A stretch of DNA of 64,000 nucleotides, from sequence record PV191315.1. One strand, 5' to 3'. Source of the stretch: Escherichia phage vB_EcoM-P3322. A model generated the notes under the pieces. It saw only the letters and a list, made by a program, of their open reading frames with translations. It did no database searches and had not been told where the DNA came from. A program made the position numbers and the translations under genes. Positions 693-9,750 of this stretch are shown here, in pieces (the stretch's first letter is position 1; every line of letters starts with the position of its first letter).

Positions 693-944
693 TTAGAATT
701 CGACAATGATTTTGTCTAAGTGTTCTGCTTCAACTTGGGATAATGTTAACACCTGCACCAAACCTCTGTCAATGCCTAATTTGATCACTTGCAAATAATC
801 ACCGAAAAGATCAGAGATTTCAATCTGGTGTTCAGTAACCACCACGACCTCGTTACCCTTGGTATACTCTCTCCAGATTCGTCCACACTTGTAAATGAAA
901 TCTTTCTGGTCTTCACTGATCATCTTAGGCTTAACGCTTAACAT
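693..944 (-). CDS. hypothetical protein
   Basis: Track ORF 83 aa, tightly packed in minus-strand gene array. Confidence 0.5.
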   Translation of the reverse strand: MLSVKPKMISEDQKDFIYKCGRIWREYTKGNEVVVVTEHQIEISDLFGDYLQVIKLGIDRGLVQVLTLSQVEAEHLDKIIVEF

Positions 945-1282
945 TACATACTCCCGTATTCTGGTTCAATATTATGTTTACGACAAATGGTATCCCAACG
1001 TTCATTACCAAAACTTCTTCCATGTAGAGCGTTAAATGCGAAATGCTCTGCCAACCACAATACTACATCATCAGGATCTGTGTCAAGAGGAATTCTAAAC
1101 TCTCGATCATAACGCATACGCAGAATAAAATCCTTATCATCTTCAAGGAGATACATGTGACTTTTAGCCCGTGATGCCAAATCAAAGAAAGGAGACTCAT
1201 CTTTCCAAACGTGACGCTCAACTTCAACACCATGATCAACTACCAGAGTAGCGATTACCTCTCTCATTTCTTTACTAAACAT
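944..1282 (-). CDS. hypothetical protein
   Basis: Track ORF 944..1300; start moved to ATG at 1282 (MFSKEM...) preceded by GGAGG. Confidence 0.5.
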   Translation of the reverse strand: MFSKEMREVIATLVVDHGVEVERHVWKDESPFFDLASRAKSHMYLLEDDKDFILRMRYDREFRIPLDTDPDDVVLWLAEHFAFNALHGRSFGNERWDTICRKHNIEPEYGSM

Positions 1283-1292
1283 ATTACCTCCA

Positions 1293-1469
1293 TTAACCAA
1301 TTAGTTCAACCGATTTGCAAATGTAAATCCAAACTGGAGTGAGCATAAGAGCTGTACCGAATACACAATTCCACTTAATTCCCATTTCCTCTATTAGAGA
1401 CATGATTAAGCCAACAGCACTAATAATCAGATAGATCCCTAAGAAAGCCATTGTGAAGAATTCAGACAT
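1293..1469 (-). CDS. small membrane protein (2 predicted TM helices)
   Basis: Track ORF 1293..1481; hydrophobic segments FLGIYLIISAVGLIMSLI and ALMLTPVWIYI; start at 1469 is a guess. Confidence 0.4.
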   Translation of the reverse strand: MSEFFTMAFLGIYLIISAVGLIMSLIEEMGIKWNCVFGTALMLTPVWIYICKSVELIG

Positions 1470-1471
1470 AT

Positions 1472-1828
1472 TTAGCTCCAAAGATTATCAAAATAACTAG
1501 CGAATAAAAGACGGCCCTCTAATCGTGCCTTCCTTTGATCTTCAGCATACACGATTTCTGGATTACCACTATCAATAAAAGCATTCTCCATCTTTTCTAA
1601 AATATTTAACCACTCTCTTCTACCTGTCTCCTCTTCTTCATCTGTATACGGCGCACTTCTATTTGGATACAAAACACGCATCAGTTTAGTGGGGATCATG
1701 ACAAACGTGCTATTGTTTGCCTTCTCACGGAAGGCTTTAATTCCTGCATAGATTACCTTCCCCAAAGCTGCATCCAAATCCATCAGGTCACTTTCTTCTA
1801 TTTGAATTTCATCGTGTACAATTTTCAT
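1472..1828 (-). CDS. hypothetical protein
   Basis: Track ORF 118 aa. Confidence 0.5.
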   Translation of the reverse strand: MKIVHDEIQIEESDLMDLDAALGKVIYAGIKAFREKANNSTFVMIPTKLMRVLYPNRSAPYTDEEEETGRREWLNILEKMENAFIDSGNPEIVYAEDQRKARLEGRLLFASYFDNLWS

Positions 1829-2112
1829 CGTGCCTTCTCCCGATCTGCATCTAATTTCAACAAGAAAGCTGTATACTCTTCCGAACCTTGGTGTAAAAAC
1901 ATGTGATAAGAGCTTACCAGTTTCTTCGTTGTCGTATAACGTTCCATTTCCCCAACAACACCTCCACCTAGTGTGTAGAGCACAATACCTTCAACTCCAA
2001 CATAGGTTACTACTTCAACCAAATCTGTGTTATCCCAATAGTAGTTAGGTGACACAATAAGATCGCCCACTGCCAGTTTAATGTTTGCTACTTCATCTTG
2101 TGAATAATACAT
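1825..2112 (-). CDS. hypothetical protein
   Basis: Track ORF 1825..2211; start moved to ATG at 2112 (MYYSQDE...) preceded by AGAGGAG. Confidence 0.45.
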   Translation of the reverse strand: MYYSQDEVANIKLAVGDLIVSPNYYWDNTDLVEVVTYVGVEGIVLYTLGGGVVGEMERYTTTKKLVSSYHMFLHQGSEEYTAFLLKLDADREKAR

Positions 2113-2149
2113 TTGGTTCTCCTCTCTTAATTGATGGAAATAGTATACC

Positions 2150-2641
2150 TTACCACATAATCTCGCGCAACTCTTTTTCTTCTTTAAAATTACGCAAGTT
2201 TTCCAGTGCACGGTTTAGGTCTTCTTCCGTCTCTGCTTTCTGGACTTTTTCCATCATTTTCGCAACAATATTTTTCTTAACTTGCAAATCTGGAACAGGC
2301 ATACGTTTTTCCATTTCATAAACTTCTCGTTTATGACGTTCCTCCATCTCTGCTTTTTCTTTTACCCAATCCGCCTCGTCCATTGCACCTTTGCAGACAC
2401 AAGTGTAACCTTTAATAGTATAATCACCATGTTCAATACCAGGTTGAAGAGCTAAGGCTTCATTACCACAATACGCGCACAACGGACGACCCGGCATTTT
2501 CAAAGTTTTGGTAGCCTTAGCGCCACATTGACTATCCCAGCTTGTTTTATAACTGGAACCATCATCTCCGTGAGAACGACCGACTAAGAAGTTACGGAAG
2601 AAGCCAGTAGCACGTTCGTCGATGTAGTCAGGGTAAGCCAT
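2150..2641 (-). CDS. hypothetical Cys-rich protein (possible zinc ribbon)
   Basis: Track ORF 163 aa; AAGGAG SD; Cys pairs CAYCGNE...CVCKG. Confidence 0.55.
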   Translation of the reverse strand: MAYPDYIDERATGFFRNFLVGRSHGDDGSSYKTSWDSQCGAKATKTLKMPGRPLCAYCGNEALALQPGIEHGDYTIKGYTCVCKGAMDEADWVKEKAEMEERHKREVYEMEKRMPVPDLQVKKNIVAKMMEKVQKAETEEDLNRALENLRNFKEEKELREIMW

Positions 2642-2654
2642 TGTATTTCTCCTT

Positions 2655-2948
2655 TCACATTAAGACACGTTTTGTGTCGATGGGTGCATTATCAAACATG
2701 TTAAGAACATTGTCAAGCAGTTTTACTAATTCGTTTGTAATTTGTTCCTTTGAACGGGAGGAAGTGAGCACTTTGCTTTCACCAACAATATGCATAACTT
2801 TTATAGGAGCGTCTAAAATGATGTTGTGCTGACGATCCTCTTCAAAAGAAGCCAACCATTTCTCATTGTTACCGTGCAAGGCTACAATCACACCAAAACC
2901 GTTAATTGTTTCAGAAATATTCTTAGTTGCTAAAGTAATGTTCATCAT
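2655..2948 (-). CDS. hypothetical protein
   Basis: Track ORF 97 aa; first gene of leftward block. Confidence 0.5.
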   Translation of the reverse strand: MMNITLATKNISETINGFGVIVALHGNNEKWLASFEEDRQHNIILDAPIKVMHIVGESKVLTSSRSKEQITNELVKLLDNVLNMFDNAPIDTKRVLM

Positions 2949-2973
2949 CTACCTCTCTTGTTAATGTTCATAC

Positions 2974-3001
2974 ATGATACCTGAAAATAATTTCAGATCA
3001 A
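2974..3001 (-). promoter_or_regulatory. candidate sigma70-type promoter for leftward block (TTGATC-N16-TATCAT on minus strand)
   Basis: Hexamers read on minus strand in the divergent intergenic region; near-palindrome CTGAAAATAATTTCAG (2981-2996) sits in the spacer. Confidence 0.3.
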
Positions 3002-3004
3002 GTA

Positions 3005-3032
3005 TTGACATACTTTTTAATCTTGTTAAGAT
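3005..3032 (+). promoter_or_regulatory. candidate sigma70-type promoter (TTGACA-N16-TAAGAT)
   Basis: Consensus -35 at 3005-3010, -10 at 3027-3032, about 30 nt before the first plus-strand gene. Confidence 0.4.
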
Positions 3033-3062
3033 CAACTCCTACCAAACAAAAGGAGAAAACAA

Positions 3063-3506
3063 ATGCAAAACATCCAAAACATCAAACTGACTTGGCCCGA
3101 AGCTAAAGAAGCAATGAAGGAAGGTAGACGTGTTGAGCACCGCCATTTTTGTGGTGGCGAATGGTTTGAGATGCGAGATGGTGTTATTCTCGACGAACAA
3201 GGTTATAACATGGAAACTTGGTTCAGAGGGGAAGCTTGGCAGGAAGAGGGTTGGTCTGTAATTGAAAAAGAAGACAGTAAGGAAGAAGGCGTGTTGTCTA
3301 ATGTAGAACGCGAGATGAGGGAAACAAAGATACCTGCTTTGGATTTTGTATACCTGGAAGAACTTGTGGCAGCATCTTTTGTAGCAGGAAACCTTTGGAA
3401 TACACCTGTTAGCCGACTGGAGAACCTAAATAACCCGTCTGCTCGTAATCACAAGCTTTATAAGGGTAAAGGTCACAACAAATTAAAGAAAGGAAAGAAG
3501 AAATGA
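3063..3506 (+). CDS. hypothetical early protein; N-terminus recalls DUF2829-type small phage proteins
   Basis: Track ORF 147 aa; strong SD AAAAGGAGAAAAC; motif WPEAKEAMKEGRRVEHRHF; Lys-rich tail. Confidence 0.5.
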   Translation: MQNIQNIKLTWPEAKEAMKEGRRVEHRHFCGGEWFEMRDGVILDEQGYNMETWFRGEAWQEEGWSVIEKEDSKEEGVLSNVEREMRETKIPALDFVYLEELVAASFVAGNLWNTPVSRLENLNNPSARNHKLYKGKGHNKLKKGKKK

Positions 3507-3652
3507 TCTACAAAAACAAGTTCACTGGTTGTCTCCGTAAATTTATCAATAAGAAAGGGTATGTTTCTCTTGACAAGGGTGTTACGTGGGTGCAAAATGG
3601 CACTTCAGAACAACTGATCAAGGCTTTACCTTACTATGAGGAGGTTTTATGA
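3503..3652 (+). CDS. small hypothetical protein (49 aa)
   Basis: Not in track; ATG 3503 overlaps upstream stop (ATGA) and its stop overlaps next start; MIYKNKFTGCLRKFINKKGYVSLDKGVTWVQNGTSEQLIKALPYYEEVL. Confidence 0.4.
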   Translation: MIYKNKFTGCLRKFINKKGYVSLDKGVTWVQNGTSEQLIKALPYYEEVL

Positions 3653-3909
3653 CACTTTATCACGTAACTACAGAAGGCGACTGTGAAGGCCGCACTACAA
3701 AAGATTTGGGGTATGTTGAAGCAGATTCACCTGAACATGCTATCAAATACCTGCATTCCATCGGGAAGTATGCGGGTTATGAGTATACTATCTACGAGGT
3801 TGAAATTATTAACCTTATACAAGTGGCAACTCCTATGGCAGAGTTGAAACATCTTAAGGCAAAAGTAAGACCTGGTATAGTGTCCGATTACAAAGGGGAA
3901 GTAAAGTGA
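3649..3909 (+). CDS. hypothetical protein
   Basis: Track ORF 86 aa; SD GAGGAGG. Confidence 0.5.
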   Translation: MTLYHVTTEGDCEGRTTKDLGYVEADSPEHAIKYLHSIGKYAGYEYTIYEVEIINLIQVATPMAELKHLKAKVRPGIVSDYKGEVK

Positions 3910-4118
3910 GTGGATGGATTAAAGTATCTGGTACCGAGGATGTTCCTATCGGAGAGTGGCTTGTAATCATGGCAAACGGCAAGAAGGGATTCTGTGAAGT
4001 TAACAAAACACGCAATGGCACGATAGCTGTTATCAATGGTCATTTTTATTTTGACTTGGCACCTGTGATCGCATACCATGCACTACCAACATATGAAGAG
4101 GAGATTAACAATGGCTAA
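3906..4118 (+). CDS. hypothetical protein
   Basis: Track ORF 70 aa; GTG start overlapping upstream stop. Confidence 0.45.
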   Translation: MSGWIKVSGTEDVPIGEWLVIMANGKKGFCEVNKTRNGTIAVINGHFYFDLAPVIAYHALPTYEEEINNG

Positions 4119-4428
4119 CAAAGAACCACATGTATATACTGCACTGGTAAAGCACTTGAACAAAGAACGTAACAGGATCATTGCAGATTATCGTAAATTT
4201 AAACGTAATAGTCTAAATCGTAAATACATGCCACATGCAGCTTTTGACGCTACACGTGCAGTATTTCGTGCAAAGATTGCGGAAATGGATAATCTGCTTA
4301 AGCTTGCACGATTATCTATTCATGCATCCAAAGTAACAGGAGTCACTCACTTCTTTGACTTCGATACTAAAGCACTATATGCACCAGAAGCAGGTGAACA
4401 ATTGATTTATCTACTTACCAAAAAATAA
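4111..4428 (+). CDS. hypothetical protein
   Basis: Track ORF 4078..4428; start moved to ATG 4111 (MANKEPHVY) after GAAGAGGAG. Confidence 0.5.
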   Translation: MANKEPHVYTALVKHLNKERNRIIADYRKFKRNSLNRKYMPHAAFDATRAVFRAKIAEMDNLLKLARLSIHASKVTGVTHFFDFDTKALYAPEAGEQLIYLLTKK

Positions 4429-4431
4429 GTG

Positions 4432-4460
4432 TTGACTTTTTTCAAAAAATATGCTACCCT
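4432..4460 (+). promoter_or_regulatory. possible promoter (TTGACT -35 with weak -10); shares 15-nt motif AAAATAAGTGTTGAC with 17354-17368
   Basis: Good -35 but only weak -10 candidates; lies at the start of a 175-nt structured intergenic region. Confidence 0.25.
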
Positions 4461-4604
4461 AACCCCGAAGGGTCGAGCGATAGCGAGTATAGATTATGTA
4501 ATAGATTAATCTCTATCGTTAGATGTTCGAAGAACAGAGATTTAAGTACTTGTTCTTATCGGTAGATGATCGTAAGATCAAGAACAATAATAGGAGAGTG
4601 TGTT

Positions 4605-5391: not shown

Positions 5392-5565
5392 ATGGGAGAT
5401 AAACAAAGTAACATCCGTTACGCGCTTTATGGAAGAATGGGTGCAGATTGTGAATGGATGCTTCTGTCGCAACGTATACCCTCTTACAAAGAGGCTCTTG
5501 AAAAAAGAGACTATTACAAACAAACATGGCGTTTTGTCATTTGTAAACACTATTTGGAGGCGTGA
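5392..5565 (+). CDS. small Cys-containing hypothetical protein (57 aa)
   Basis: Not in track; SD AAGGAGG 5 nt before ATG 5392; stop overlaps next start; preferred over alternative-frame track ORF 5429..5653. Confidence 0.4.
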   Translation: MGDKQSNIRYALYGRMGADCEWMLLSQRIPSYKEALEKRDYYKQTWRFVICKHYLEA

Positions 5566-5873
5566 TGAGTACATTATCATTAGCAGTTACGGTGCACCAG
5601 TATTACGAAGAAGCTGTAAAAGATTCAGAAAATCCATCTACATTAGTATTTGAAGATCGGACTGGTCTTAAGTGGGTAGAATCTTGTGGTGAACTTTACT
5701 TTTGGTATCCACAAGGTTGCACAAGTAATTCTAATTTGTATAGTTATGAATTGGAGTATCGTGCGCCTGTAGACGAAGATGATAATTACATCATGTATTA
5801 TGTTAATAATGGTTGCGGTGAAACGTTTAATGTAGTATTCTCTAAAGCCTTGAAGTCCGACGAGGAAATGTAA
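5565..5873 (+). CDS. hypothetical protein, tandem paralog 1
   Basis: Track ORF 5562..5873; shares LSLAV..H..Y...VKD...P..L.F and YELE(Y/H)RAP..EDD..IM with the next gene. Confidence 0.5.
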   Translation: MSTLSLAVTVHQYYEEAVKDSENPSTLVFEDRTGLKWVESCGELYFWYPQGCTSNSNLYSYELEYRAPVDEDDNYIMYYVNNGCGETFNVVFSKALKSDEEM

Positions 5874-6178
5874 TGCGGCACAATACGACTTTAAGTTTGG
5901 CAGTTGCAGCCCACATGCTGTACAATGATTCTGTGAAGGATGAGTTGTCGCCTGTGAGTTTAGCTTTCCATCTGATAGACAGGGATTGGATGTTCTCTGG
6001 TGAGGATGAAATCTACTACGTAAATTCACGCGGTTTTATTGAAAGTTTTGAACTTGAACATCGCGCACCAACAGCAGAAGATGATCGTTTTATTATGTTC
6101 TGTGTAAATGATGGTTACGGAGAGGTATATGACGTAGTATTCTTCAAAAACCGACAGAAGACTGAAGAGGAATTCTAA
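5873..6178 (+). CDS. hypothetical protein, tandem paralog 2
   Basis: Track ORF 101 aa; TAATG overlap; paralog of 5565..5873. Confidence 0.5.
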   Translation: MRHNTTLSLAVAAHMLYNDSVKDELSPVSLAFHLIDRDWMFSGEDEIYYVNSRGFIESFELEHRAPTAEDDRFIMFCVNDGYGEVYDVVFFKNRQKTEEEF

Positions 6179-8157: not shown

Positions 8158-9750
8158 GTGTCTACACAATTGAGTTTTACACCTACTGATGAACAATACG
8201 CTATTGAAAGCGGGTATAAAGAAAATCGTTTCGTTACAATTCAAGCTAAATCTGGATCAGGTAAAACGTCAACACTGTATATGTTGGCTAATGGCACAAA
8301 TGATAGTATTCTATATTTGGCATTTAACAAAAGTATGGCAGAGGAAGCTCGACGTAAAATGCCGCCCAATGTTATGTGCCGAACGCTACATTCTATTTGT
8401 TACCAGCGTCTTCCACAAAACCTTCGACACAAATTATCTCGTCCAGAAGGTCAATATGTTAACGTAGCTGGAACTGGTAGTGAGATTGCCAAGAAATTCA
8501 AGATTCAGAACTTGATCGATAAGAATGGTAAAGTGCTACTGACTCGTGCAATGATCGGGTTAATGGTAAAACAAACTTTAGCTAAATATGAGTTTTCTGA
8601 CGATGAACATATCGGACATAAACATTTTCCTAAAGTGCACATGTCAGACCTAAAACGTAAAAACATCAACGAACAAAAACTTATTAACGAAGTTGTTAAA
8701 TATGCGAAGCAACTTTGGCGTGAGCGTATTGATCCTAAATCAGAAACCATTATGACTCATGACACCTATGTGAAACTCTTTGAATTGAGCAAAGAAGATT
8801 TAGGATACGATATTATTTTTGGAGATGAATTCCAGGATGTTAACCCTGCATTCCTGTCTATCCTTCGTAATGCTAAATCGGCTAAACGTATTGTTGTTGT
8901 GGGTGATGAATTTCAGAGTATTTATCAGTTCCGTGGAAGCCAGAACATGATGAAGCAAACGGCTACATATGGGGTTGAGTTGCCTCTGACAGCTTGTTTT
9001 CGCTTTGGTTCTAAAGTTGCGGACATTGCTAATGCGATCCTTTCTGATCGTTCACCTCTGAAGCATCCGCTGGTAGGCAAAGGTTATGATACTGTCACTG
9101 GAAGTTTTCATTCTGATGTGGTAGATTATAGTAAACCTTACACCATTATTTTCCGTAAGAATTTGACTCTGTTGCTCGAAGCTATGGACCGAATCGCTAA
9201 CGGAGAAGAGATTATTATTAACGTAGATACCAAAGATTTCATTTCTATGGTTGATAGTGTTAATGCTTTACGTAGAGGTGATTTGGACAAAGTTAAACAT
9301 GAGACAGTTCTCCCTTACACTTCTTGGGAAGAATTTGTAGAGTGTGCAGAATCAGATCCTGATGCAAAACGACTTTTAAACATTGTTGTTTCTGGTAAAG
9401 CTAATAATATTGCATATACTTTACGTATGCACCGTAACTCTCCAACGGCTAAAGTTACTTTAACTACAGCCCACAAATCAAAAGGTTTGGAGTGGGATCA
9501 GGTTATTGTTGCAAATGACTTCCCTTCCAATTATGATAAGAAGGGTGAGTGGGTAGGTCTTGAAGAATCAGAACGAAATCTTCTGTATGTTGCACATACA
9601 CGTTGTATTAAATGTCTGCAATGGAACCGAACTGTTCAAGAGATTTTAGACATGCATCGTTTAGGTAAGAGCACGGCTCCTGTATCTGAAGAAGATAAGC
9701 TTATAGCTGCCCTTGCTCGTAAGATTAATCAAATCAGAGAGGATCGTTAA
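8158..9750 (+). CDS. UvrD/Rep-like superfamily 1 DNA helicase
   Basis: Walker A AKSGSGKTS; motif II FGDEFQD; motif III VVVGDEFQSIYQFRG; motif VI-like TTAHKSKGLEWDQVIV; GTG start with SD. Confidence 0.7.
   Translation: MSTQLSFTPTDEQYAIESGYKENRFVTIQAKSGSGKTSTLYMLANGTNDSILYLAFNKSMAEEARRKMPPNVMCRTLHSICYQRLPQNLRHKLSRPEGQYVNVAGTGSEIAKKFKIQNLIDKNGKVLLTRAMIGLMVKQTLAKYEFSDDEHIGHKHFPKVHMSDLKRKNINEQKLINEVVKYAKQLWRERIDPKSETIMTHDTYVKLFELSKEDLGYDIIFGDEFQDVNPAFLSILRNAKSAKRIVVVGDEFQSIYQFRGSQNMMKQTATYGVELPLTACFRFGSKVADIANAILSDRSPLKHPLVGKGYDTVTGSFHSDVVDYSKPYTIIFRKNLTLLLEAMDRIANGEEIIINVDTKDFISMVDSVNALRRGDLDKVKHETVLPYTSWEEFVECAESDPDAKRLLNIVVSGKANNIAYTLRMHRNSPTAKVTLTTAHKSKGLEWDQVIVANDFPSNYDKKGEWVGLEESERNLLYVAHTRCIKCLQWNRTVQEILDMHRLGKSTAPVSEEDKLIAALARKINQIREDR

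What the first reader, a model, noticed from the sequence alone, without database searches (positions are those of the whole stretch)
3063..3506. First early gene may be a DUF2829-type small anti-defence protein
The first plus-strand gene after the divergent promoter begins with WPEAKEAMKEGRRVEHRHF, which resembles the signature I recall for DUF2829-type phage proteins, a family that includes cyclic-nucleotide sponge anti-defence proteins. First position in the early transcript is where anti-defence genes often sit. The assignment is from memory and weak.
Basis: inference. Interest (0 to 1): 0.45.

Follow-up and report, generated by a model that had tools for sequence, protein, structure and literature searches.

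The report
Mini Tad2-fold early protein, basic tail
The first early gene of this phAPEC8-like coliphage encodes a two-part protein: its front 60 residues have the fold of the Tad2/DUF2829 phage anti-immunity "sponge" proteins but lack their known ligand-binding residues, and its back half ends in a strictly conserved lysine-rich tail, so it is a plausible but unproven anti-defence protein.

Summary
The ORF (3063-3506, +, 147 aa) and the quoted peptide are exactly as described. It is the first gene after a sigma-70-like promoter in a divergent intergenic region of a Phapecoctavirus (98.6% nt identity to phAPEC8).

The DUF2829/Tad2 recollection holds for fold and remote homology, but not for family thresholds or function.
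- **Direct searches:** Pfam, NCBIfam and PDB sequence searches find nothing for this protein.
- **Relatives:** 4 of 8 stand-alone relatives and 29 of 141 cluster representatives give weak PF11195 hits.
- **Profile-profile:** comparison with 16 bona fide Tad2 proteins gives 95.5% probability, E 1.6e-8. Reversed and Acb2 controls give 1.4% or less.

The gcADPR motifs (GWNG, W.PSQTD) are not kept, and the beta2-beta3 loop is deleted. The family has its own near-invariant H26, F29, E33, E45 and W64.

The C-terminal module ends in KGKGHNKLKKGKKK. It also occurs as a stand-alone phage protein.

Most likely this is an early ligand-binding anti-defence protein of unknown specificity. No function was demonstrated.

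The parts
3005..3032 (+). Sigma-70-like promoter: TTGACA, 16-nt spacer, TAAGAT, with TG upstream of the -10 hexamer
   Evidence: 10 of 12 matches, TG present. A promoter is annotated at the equivalent site in phage ASO2A. A consensus match only; not shown to be functional.
3050..3055 (+). Shine-Dalgarno sequence AAGGAG, 7 nt upstream of the ATG
   Evidence: Read directly from the sequence.
3063..3506 (+). Coding sequence, 147 aa (phrog_22208)
   Evidence: ORF; phrog_22208, E 2.4e-101, full length; conserved in Phapecoctavirus genomes.
3066..3083 (+). In-frame 9-bp tandem duplication (CAAAACATC x2) giving QNIQNI. Most relatives have a single QNI.
   Evidence: Sequence; alignment A1.
3084..3266 (+). 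N-terminal Tad2-like (DUF2829-fold) mini-domain, aa 8-68 (phrog_3474 type). Predicted helix 11-19 and strands 23-26, 35-38, 41-44 and 64-67.
   Evidence: phrog_3474, E 5.1e-30; pLDDT 77-87; fold matches Tad2/AcrIIA7 only; profile-profile homology with controls.
3267..3323 (+). Acidic, variable, low-confidence linker, aa 69-87
   Evidence: Indel-rich in A1. pLDDT 47-52. pI 4.8 for aa 69-92.
3324..3503 (+). C-terminal module, aa 88-147 (LEELVAASF...W.TPVSR...). It also occurs as a stand-alone phage protein.
   Evidence: Nearly invariant in A1. Homologues lacking the N-domain: P0278-P0281. P0279 is phrog_27594. AF2 gives two helices plus a disordered tail, pLDDT 60.7.
3447..3503 (+). Polybasic C-terminal tail NHKLYKGKGHNKLKKGKKK
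   Evidence: K-G-x-G-H-N-x-L...KKK is invariant across distant homologues. aa 121-147 have pI 10.9, with 10 K/R and no D/E.
3503..3506 (+). ATGA stop/start overlap with the next small ORF (3503..3652), which suggests translational coupling

Best explanation
Shown: the gene encodes a conserved two-module protein. Residues ~8-68 adopt the Tad2/DUF2829 fold: an N-terminal helix carrying the '..EA..AM..G.[KR]V' motif, an antiparallel sheet, and a closing 'GW.[VI]' strand. They belong to a large, unannotated sister family of Pfam PF11195, with at least 1,089 50%-identity clusters. Members are mostly 60-70-aa stand-alone phage proteins. Residues ~88-147 are a separate module ending in an invariant polybasic tail. 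That module also occurs on its own in other phages.

Inferred: the protein is made immediately after infection from a host-type promoter. Like Tad2-family proteins, it probably oligomerises and sequesters a small nucleotide-type host signal in a pocket between protomers. The two aromatic walls of the Tad2 pocket appear retained (SPO1 W25 -> F29, W73 -> W53). The polar specificity residues are replaced, and the family's own near-invariant H26, E33 and E45 fall in the same loops. The ligand is therefore expected to differ from gcADPR.

More speculative: the basic tail tethers the protein to a polyanion (nucleic acid, ribosome or membrane), or the C-module contributes a second binding activity, as in known sponge-sponge fusions.
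For: Fold and homology:
- The Foldseek PDB top 14 hits are all Tad2.
- BFVD hits include UniProt-named DUF2829/Tad2-like proteins of 60-63 aa, up to 33% identity.
- hhalign gives 90.9% probability, E 1.1e-6, and 95.5%, E 1.6e-8 with 276 sequences. The alignment runs end to end with one 24-residue deletion. Controls give 1.4% or less.
- Sub-threshold PF11195 hits occur in 4 of 8 and 29 of 141 relatives.
- The A3 profile's top three PDB sequence hits are Tad2 proteins.

Timing and position:
- It is the first gene after the promoter.
- In the T5-like phage Seafire, the stand-alone homologue lies inside the terminal repeat, the first-step-transfer pre-early region. It sits directly after the T5.015 orthologue, in a slot that holds different genes in T5.

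Pocket mapping and family signature.

Modularity:
- The C-module stands alone in Mydovirus, in the same operon as a stand-alone N-domain.
- In phi92-like phages the N-domain is fused to phrog_11295, which is a separate gene in this window.
- Tad2 domains are known to be fused to other sponge domains, Acb4 and Sequestin (bioRxiv 10.1101/2025.07.12.664507).
Against: - No direct Pfam, NCBIfam or PDB sequence hit for this protein.
- The GWNG and S/T/D residues that bind gcADPR are not conserved. Li et al. report that this site is conserved in about 99% of Tad2 proteins.
- The beta2-beta3 loop/alpha2 forms the Tad2 dimer interface and, when enlarged, the cyclic-dinucleotide site. It is deleted here, so the tetramer and its pockets may not form.
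- The domain is acidic (pI 4.85), whereas sponge pockets are typically positively charged.
- Two of the shortest Tad2 homologues tested by Hadary et al. (Tad2_80, 73 aa; Tad2_84, 60 aa) inhibited none of seven systems.
- The C-terminal half of the residue mapping rests on a low-confidence part of the profile alignment.
- Oligomeric state and ligand binding could not be examined.
Confidence: 0.4

Rival explanations
1. It is a nucleic-acid (RNA or DNA) binding early protein of the AcrIIA7 type. The Tad2-fold core, helped by the lysine-rich tail, binds a structured host or defence RNA, or DNA, rather than a small molecule.
For: - AcrIIA7 was reported to bind tracrRNA in a basic groove of the tetramer core through K58, K66 and K71, which lie in helix 1 and the beta1-beta2 loop (PMC13133391).
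- The family keeps basic residues in the equivalent 'G-K/R-K/R-V' stretch.
- The tail has 10 K/R and no acidic residue.
- Relatives repeatedly carry basic C-termini, including SEC-C zinc knuckles.
Against: - The N-domain is acidic overall (pI 4.85).
- Enterobacterial hosts lack type II CRISPR and tracrRNA (established knowledge).
- Li et al. could not reproduce the anti-Cas9 activity of HgmTad2.
- Most family members are stand-alone 60-70-aa proteins without any basic tail.
Confidence: 0.2
2. It is a host-takeover or anti-defence protein that works through protein-protein contact. The small Tad2-like domain serves as a binding scaffold against a host enzyme or defence protein, and no ligand is sequestered.
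For: - The canonical ligand residues and the oligomerisation loop are lost.
- The conserved exposed polar and aromatic residues H26, F29, E33 and E45 could form an interaction surface.
- The domain is fused to many unrelated C-terminal regions, as adaptor domains often are.
- It sits among early or pre-early genes, where many host-shutoff proteins are found.
Against: No partner is indicated by any data here. All characterised members of the fold bind nucleotides or RNA.
Confidence: 0.2
3. It is a canonical Tad2: a tetrameric sponge for the type I Thoeris signal 1''-3' gcADPR.
For: Same fold. The aromatic positions equivalent to W25 and W73 are retained as F29 and W53.
Against: - N26, S76, T78 and D79 equivalents are not conserved.
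- The alpha2 dimerisation loop is deleted.
- There is no PF11195 hit.
- Li et al. find the gcADPR site conserved in about 99% of true Tad2 proteins.
Confidence: 0.07

Closest known systems
SPO1 Tad2 (PDB 8SME/8SMF/8WJE), Pfam PF11195 Tad2-like/DUF2829
   Same: Same topology: an N-terminal helix with the '..[FW]..A.EA[LM]K.G.[KR]V' motif, an antiparallel sheet, and a C-terminal 'DW.[IV]' strand. Both are small phage proteins. Foldseek probability is up to 1.0 and TM-score up to 0.60 normalised to the target. The profile alignment runs end to end.
   Different: The aligned region has 24 fewer residues because the beta2-beta3 loop/alpha2 is absent. GWNG becomes HFCGG and W.PSQTD becomes WFRGEA. 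The family has its own invariant H26, E33 and E45. It falls below Pfam's threshold. It carries an extra ~80-residue C-terminal extension.
HgmTad2 / AcrIIA7 (PDB 8KBI) and ModTad2 (PDB 9EIB)
   Different: HgmTad2 has a 35-41-residue insertion that forms the cyclic-dinucleotide site, plus an N-terminal head domain. Neither is present here. Sequence identity is about 20%.
Fusions of Tad2 with Acb4 or Sequestin (PF21825) sponge domains
   Same: A Tad2-type domain is joined in one polypeptide to a second short, mostly helical module that also exists as a stand-alone phage protein (compared).
   Different: The C-module here matches neither Acb4 nor PF21825 (no Pfam hit). It ends in a disordered polybasic tail, and no activity is known for it.
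Short proteins named 'DUF2829 domain-containing' in UniProt (e.g. A0A8S5RI74, 63 aa; Klebsiella phage KpS110 A0A2K9VAK2, 60 aa)
   Same: Same size class and fold as the N-domain, with 23-33% identity. They bridge this family to PF11195.
   Different: They are stand-alone, uncharacterised, and have no C-terminal module.

Membership tests
Pfam PF11195 (Tad2-like / DUF2829) | HMM score at or above the gathering threshold (25 bits) | tested here: not met
   No hit for the window protein even at E<=10. Stand-alone relatives score 17.8-22.5 bits. 29 of 141 representatives hit at E<=0.01, best 1.5e-5.
Pfam PF11195 (Tad2-like / DUF2829) | Homology detectable by profile-profile comparison with bona fide Tad2 proteins | tested here: met
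   hhalign gives 90.9% probability, E 1.1e-6, and 95.5%, E 1.6e-8. Reversed-sequence and Acb2 controls give 1.4% or less.
Pfam PF11195 (Tad2-like / DUF2829) | [quoted passage not shown] | tested here: met
Tad2 gcADPR sponge (functional definition) | GWNG loop: W25 and N26 of SPO1 Tad2 (W21/N22 of HgmTad2) | tested here: not met
   The aligned residues are F29 and C30, within HFCGG. The aromatic is kept and the Asn is lost. Family consensus is F (99%) followed by T/S.
Tad2 gcADPR sponge (functional definition) | W73 and the S76/T78/D79 (SQTD) motif | tested here: not met
   W53 aligns with W73, but S76 aligns to a gap, T78 to E57 and D79 to A58. This part of the alignment has low confidence.
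Tad2 gcADPR sponge (functional definition) | Homotetramer with pockets at protomer interfaces; dimer contact through alpha2/beta2 | not testable with these tools
   Only monomer prediction was available. The alpha2 loop (SPO1 residues 38-61) is deleted in this family, which argues against an identical assembly.
Tad2 cyclic-dinucleotide sponge (HgmTad2/SptTad2 type) | 35-41-residue insertion between beta2 and beta5 that forms the CDN pocket | tested here: not met
   There is no insertion. The region is shorter than in SPO1 Tad2; the requirement is described.
Any Tad2-type anti-defence protein | Sequesters an immune signal and rescues phage from a signalling defence system | not testable with these tools
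   This needs binding and infection assays.
AcrIIA7-type RNA binder | Basic groove residues K58, K66 and K71 of pdAcrIIA7 | tested here: inconclusive
   By transfer through the Tad2 alignment, K19 matches K58, R27/H28 roughly match K66, and there is no basic residue at the K71 position. There is no direct alignment to pdAcrIIA7.
PHROG phrog_22208 / phrog_3474 | HMM match | tested here: met
   phrog_22208 E 2.4e-101 over the full length; phrog_3474 E 5.1e-30 over aa 7-68. Both are annotated 'unknown function'.
SEC-C motif (PF02810) for the C-terminal tail | Cys/His zinc knuckle, C.C.SG..[YF]K.CC | tested here: not met
   No Pfam hit and no cysteines in the tail. Five of 141 relatives do carry a true SEC-C motif at the same position.

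The most novel reading that the evidence does not exclude
The mini-Tad2 family (phrog_3474 type, at least 1,089 clusters) would be a distinct sponge lineage. Its H26/F29/E33/E45 pocket would capture an immune or second-messenger molecule that no known sponge targets. The modules repeatedly fused to it would themselves be new anti-defence modules, discoverable by the guilt-by-fusion logic that revealed Sequestin. These are the 'KG.GHNKL..KKK' tail module (phrog_27594 type) and phrog_11295, which is window ORF 944..1300. The polybasic tail would localise the sponge to where the signal is produced or sensed.
Probability: 0.15. Interest if true: 0.7.

Novelty: new variant of a known kind. Interest (0 to 1): 0.45.

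Why it matters
Phapecoctaviruses and the other carriers (Justusliebigvirus, Mydovirus, Jiaodavirus, Felix O1-like, T5-like and Chaseviridae phages) are common candidates for therapy against enterobacteria, and their early 'hypothetical' genes are largely unexplained.

Placing this gene in the Tad2 superfamily gives a concrete experiment: test oligomerisation, ligand binding and rescue on signalling defence systems. It does so for a family of more than a thousand sequence clusters that current annotation mostly misses.

The family keeps the fold but changes the pocket residues, so it could extend the range of signals that phage sponges are known to capture. The fusion partners point to further candidate anti-defence modules.

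If the protein turns out to have no ligand, it would show that the DUF2829 fold alone is not a reliable predictor of sponge function.

Tried and rejected
- **Direct searches found nothing useful.** Pfam, NCBIfam and PDB sequence search gave no real hit. The PDB search returned only CutA proteins at E ~0.3, which I treat as chance. The weak phrog_270 replication-initiator hit (E 0.034) is also chance.
- **The first word-indexed homologue search was too narrow.** It found only close Phapecoctavirus relatives. A seed alignment of translated tblastn hits was needed to reach the wider family.
- **The C-terminal module could not be modelled.** The AF2 model had mean pLDDT 60.7 and pTM 0.25, with two helices plus disorder. 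I did not run a fold search on it.
- **The tail is not a SEC-C motif.** I considered this and rejected it: the tail has no cysteines and gives no Pfam hit.
- **Literature search by identifier returned nothing** (accession, locus tag, PHROG id).
- **I could not tell whether Hadary et al. included this family.** The text held for their Table S1 contains none of the sequence strings I searched for. None of their 16 tested Tad2 proteins carries the family motif.
- **T5 has no homologue.** I looked in its first-step-transfer region and found none. The slot after T5.015 holds different genes.
- **There is no second copy in the window.** Searches with the N-domain and Tad2 HMMs over the six-frame translation found only this ORF.
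- **Neighbouring genes gave no known anti-defence family**.
- **The model's coordinates were not available.** The pocket mapping therefore rests on the profile alignment, not on a superposition.

Full report
**Observation.** The window is a Phapecoctavirus. Bases 2600-4500 are 98.6% identical to Escherichia phage phAPEC8, and 126 phage records match. The ORF at 3063..3506 (+), 147 aa, is as described and contains LTWPEAKEAMKEGRRVEHRHF. An AAGGAG ribosome-binding site lies 7 nt upstream. A TTGACA-16-TAAGAT site with an upstream TG lies at 3005-3032, inside a 114-bp divergent intergenic region. The near-identical phage ASO2A has a promoter annotated at the same place, and the gene is the first of a rightward run of small ORFs. 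The stop codon overlaps the next start (ATGA, 3503-3506). 'Early' is inferred from the promoter type and gene order.

**Direct searches.** Pfam gives no hit even at E<=10. NCBIfam gives none. A PDB sequence search gives only chance-level CutA hits. PHROGs places the whole protein in phrog_22208 (E 2.4e-101) and residues 7-68 in phrog_3474 (E 5.1e-30), both of unknown function. There is a weak match of residues 5-39 to phrog_2709.

**Two modules.** tblastn against phages finds 469 records. Only 69 of them cover at least 80% of the protein. The rest match only residues ~2-70, at about 40-57% identity. The carriers include:
- Jiaodavirus and other Straboviridae
- Felix O1-like Ounavirinae
- T5-like Epseptimavirus
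- Chaseviridae
- Justusliebigvirus
- Mydovirus

In these phages the match is usually a stand-alone ORF of 62-70 aa. Within Phapecoctavirus relatives, the C-terminal half is the more conserved part. LE.LVAAS..G..W.TPVSR....N.PS.RN.KL.KG.GHNKLKKGKKK is nearly invariant, while the linker (residues ~69-87) carries indels.

**Link to Tad2/DUF2829: sequence.** Four of eight stand-alone relatives give sub-threshold hits to PF11195 'Tad2-like' (E 1.7e-4 to 5e-3, 17.8-22.5 bits, gathering cut-off 25). One of these covers profile positions 1-64 of 73.

A profile search of 1.84 billion cluster representatives finds 1,089 clusters at E<=1e-3 and 119 at E<=1e-10. Of 141 of these, 29 hit PF11195 at E<=0.01, best 1.5e-5. 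A 12-sequence profile of the domain ranks three Tad2 structures first among PDB sequences: SptTad2 at E 0.016, then Tad2 8v3e and ModTad2.

I took 16 bona fide Tad2 sequences from Table S2 of Hadary et al., including SPO1 Tad2, MoTad2 and HgmTad2 (bioRxiv 10.1101/2025.08.24.671296). hhalign against them gives 90.9% probability, E 1.1e-6. With a 276-sequence domain alignment it gives 95.5%, E 1.6e-8. Reversing either alignment, or substituting an Acb2 alignment, gives 1.4% or less.

**Link to Tad2/DUF2829: structure.** I built an AlphaFold2 model from a 132-sequence alignment that contained no Tad2 proteins, and used no templates. Residues ~10-70 have pLDDT 77-87. The predicted elements are helix 11-19, strands 23-26, 35-38, 41-44 and 64-67, and a short helix 58-61. 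The C-terminal half is poorly modelled, at 47-64.
- Foldseek against the PDB returns Tad2 structures as the top 14 hits (SPO1, ModTad2, SptTad2). Probability is up to 1.0 and TM-score 0.5-0.6 normalised to the target, although E-values are only 0.035-0.8.
- BFVD returns family members plus 60-63-aa viral proteins that UniProt already names 'DUF2829 domain-containing' or 'Thoeris anti-defense 2-like', with up to 33% identity.

I regard the fold and superfamily assignment of residues ~8-68 as established (about 0.9).

**What is not conserved.** In SPO1 Tad2, gcADPR is held by W25 and N26 (the GWNG loop), by W73, and by S76, T78 and D79, with I63, T65, D67 and H71 nearby. The pockets lie between protomers of a tetramer whose dimer contact uses helix alpha2 and strand beta2 (bioRxiv 10.1101/2023.05.01.538930). 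Li et al. describe the same site in HgmTad2 (W21/N22, S90/T92/D93). They state that it is conserved in all but about 1% of Tad2 proteins, and that cyclic-dinucleotide binding needs a 35-41-residue insertion between beta2 and beta5 (bioRxiv 10.1101/2023.11.15.567273).

The end-to-end profile alignment gives the following mapping. Its second half is low-confidence.

| SPO1 Tad2 | This protein |
|---|---|
| W25 | F29 |
| N26 | C30 |
| residues 38-61 (beta2-beta3 loop, alpha2) | deleted (24 residues) |
| W73 | W53 |
| S76 | gap |
| T78 | E57 |
| D79 | A58 |
| W85 | W64 |

The two aromatic walls of the pocket appear to be kept. The polar specificity residues are lost, together with the loop used for dimerisation and for cyclic dinucleotides.

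Across 141 sequences filtered at 60% identity, the family's own signature (window numbering) is:

| Residue | Frequency |
|---|---|
| A14 | 0.98 |
| M18 | 0.82 |
| G21 | 0.98 |
| H26 | 0.87 |
| F29 | 0.99 |
| E33 | 0.99 |
| E45 | 0.96 |
| G47 | 0.87 |
| W64 | 0.94 |

By the alignment, H26, F29, E33 and E45 fall in strand beta1, the beta1-beta2 loop, the start of beta2 and the beta3-beta4 loop. These are largely the elements that frame the Tad2 pocket. It fits a pocket that has been kept but re-specified, and it does not prove one.

**The C-terminal module.** Residues 121-147 have pI 10.9, with 10 K/R and no acidic residue. The N-domain has pI 4.85. Distant full-length relatives keep 'LE...A...G' and an invariant K-G-[KR]-G-H-N-[KR]-L-.-K-..-KKK terminus around a variable middle: KP13-16, P0134, P0135, and the 221-aa P0138.

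A profile of this module finds proteins that lack the Tad2-like domain but end with the same tail: P0278 (88 aa), P0279/P0280 (~101 aa) and P0281 (89 aa). P0279 is phrog_27594 (E 1.7e-68). The tail of P0281 matches the C-terminus of the 399-aa phrog_21279.

P0279 is KpS8 gp092 in Mydovirus. It lies in the same operon as a stand-alone N-domain gene, gp096, three small genes upstream. The two modules are therefore separate neighbours in one phage group and fused in another.

In phi92-like phages (UAB_1 gp224), the N-domain is instead fused to phrog_11295, which in this window is a separate gene at 944..1300 on the minus strand. Other relatives carry different basic C-termini, including true SEC-C zinc knuckles in 5 of 141.

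A dedicated AF2 model of the module is low-confidence: mean pLDDT 60.7, two helices, then disorder.

**Context bearing on function.** In the T5-like phage Seafire, the 65-aa homologue (gp017) lies inside the terminal repeat, which is the first-step-transfer pre-early DNA. It is the last gene of the rightward operon, directly after the orthologue of T5.015. T5 itself has different genes in that slot and no homologue. A variable slot in the earliest-expressed DNA, together with first position behind a host-type promoter here, is where anti-defence and host-takeover genes are commonly found. This is contextual evidence only. No known anti-defence family was found among the neighbours, and there is no second copy in the window.

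**What the fold is known to do.**
- Tad2-family proteins sequester gcADPR, His-ADPR, N7-cADPR, cyclic dinucleotides and cUMP/cCMP, at different interfaces of the tetramer.
- AcrIIA7, which has the same fold, was reported to bind tracrRNA in a basic groove (PMC13133391). Li et al. could not reproduce its anti-Cas9 activity.
- Tad2 domains are often fused to other sponge domains (Acb4, Sequestin/PF21825), and that fact was used to discover Sequestin (bioRxiv 10.1101/2025.07.12.664507).
- Many Tad2 homologues tested by Hadary et al. inhibited none of seven systems. These include two of the shortest, Tad2_80 (73 aa) and Tad2_84 (60 aa).

**Conclusion.** It was incomplete about architecture, and the function remains unproven.

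My best explanation (0.4) is an early, oligomeric ligand-binding anti-defence protein of the Tad2 superfamily with a specificity other than gcADPR. The second module and its polybasic tail would provide anchoring or a second activity.

Rival explanations:
- an AcrIIA7-like nucleic-acid binder (0.2)
- a protein-contact inhibitor that uses the fold as a scaffold (0.2)
- a canonical gcADPR sponge (0.07)

It should not be filed as a member of PF11195 or as a Tad2 sponge, because the threshold and the defining pocket residues were tested and not met. It is best described as a divergent minimal variant of the Tad2-like superfamily fused to an uncharacterised basic-tail module.

Noticed in passing
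window 3066-3083: In-frame 9-bp tandem duplication (CAAAACATC twice) gives QNIQNI at the N-terminus. Most relatives have a single QNI. Residue 12 is Pro here, Thr in most relatives and Leu in ASO2A.
   Followed up: partly
window 944..1300 (-): This 118-aa ORF is phrog_11295 (E 5.5e-57). In phi92-like phages (UAB_1 gp224, L006 2507-3058) the same domain is fused to the C-terminus of the Tad2-like domain. By the fusion logic it is a candidate functional partner or anti-defence module.
   Followed up: partly
L010 (Klebsiella phage KpS8) 1564-1791 and 2566-2874: In Mydovirus, the Tad2-like domain (gp096) and the polybasic-tail module (gp092, phrog_27594) are separate genes in one operon, three small genes apart. 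In Phapecoctavirus they are fused.
   Followed up: yes
P0281 and phrog_21279; P0278-P0280: The C-terminal peptide K-G-[KR]-G-H-N-K-L-.-K-..-KKK ends several otherwise unrelated phage proteins, including a 399-aa PHROG family. It looks like a portable C-terminal tag of unknown role.
   Followed up: partly
P0193, P0202, P0219, P0229, P0271 (relatives): Five of 141 representatives of the N-domain family end with a true SEC-C zinc-knuckle motif (PF02810). Others end in KRSHKR.N.RKRR or GNKR.IYK. Short basic C-termini are a recurrent partner of this domain.
   Followed up: partly
L002 (Salmonella phage Seafire) 5001-5198; L011 (T5) 8300-9157: The stand-alone homologue sits in the pre-early first-step-transfer terminal repeat of an Epseptimavirus, right after the T5.015 orthologue. 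T5 has the unrelated T5.016 and T5.017 in that slot, so this is a variable accessory position.
   Followed up: yes
window 1825..2211 (-) and 2655..2948 (-): Two neighbouring minus-strand genes carry Pfam families of unknown role: the phage tudor domain (PF24144, E 1.7e-24) and DUF7325 (PF24011, E 6.5e-24).
   Followed up: no
window 5562..5873 and 5873..6178 (+): Two adjacent ~100-aa ORFs look like tandem paralogues: shared TLSLAV...H..Y...VKD and ...E[LH][ER]YRAP...DD.[YF]IM[YF].VN.G.GE...VVF (by eye).
   Followed up: no
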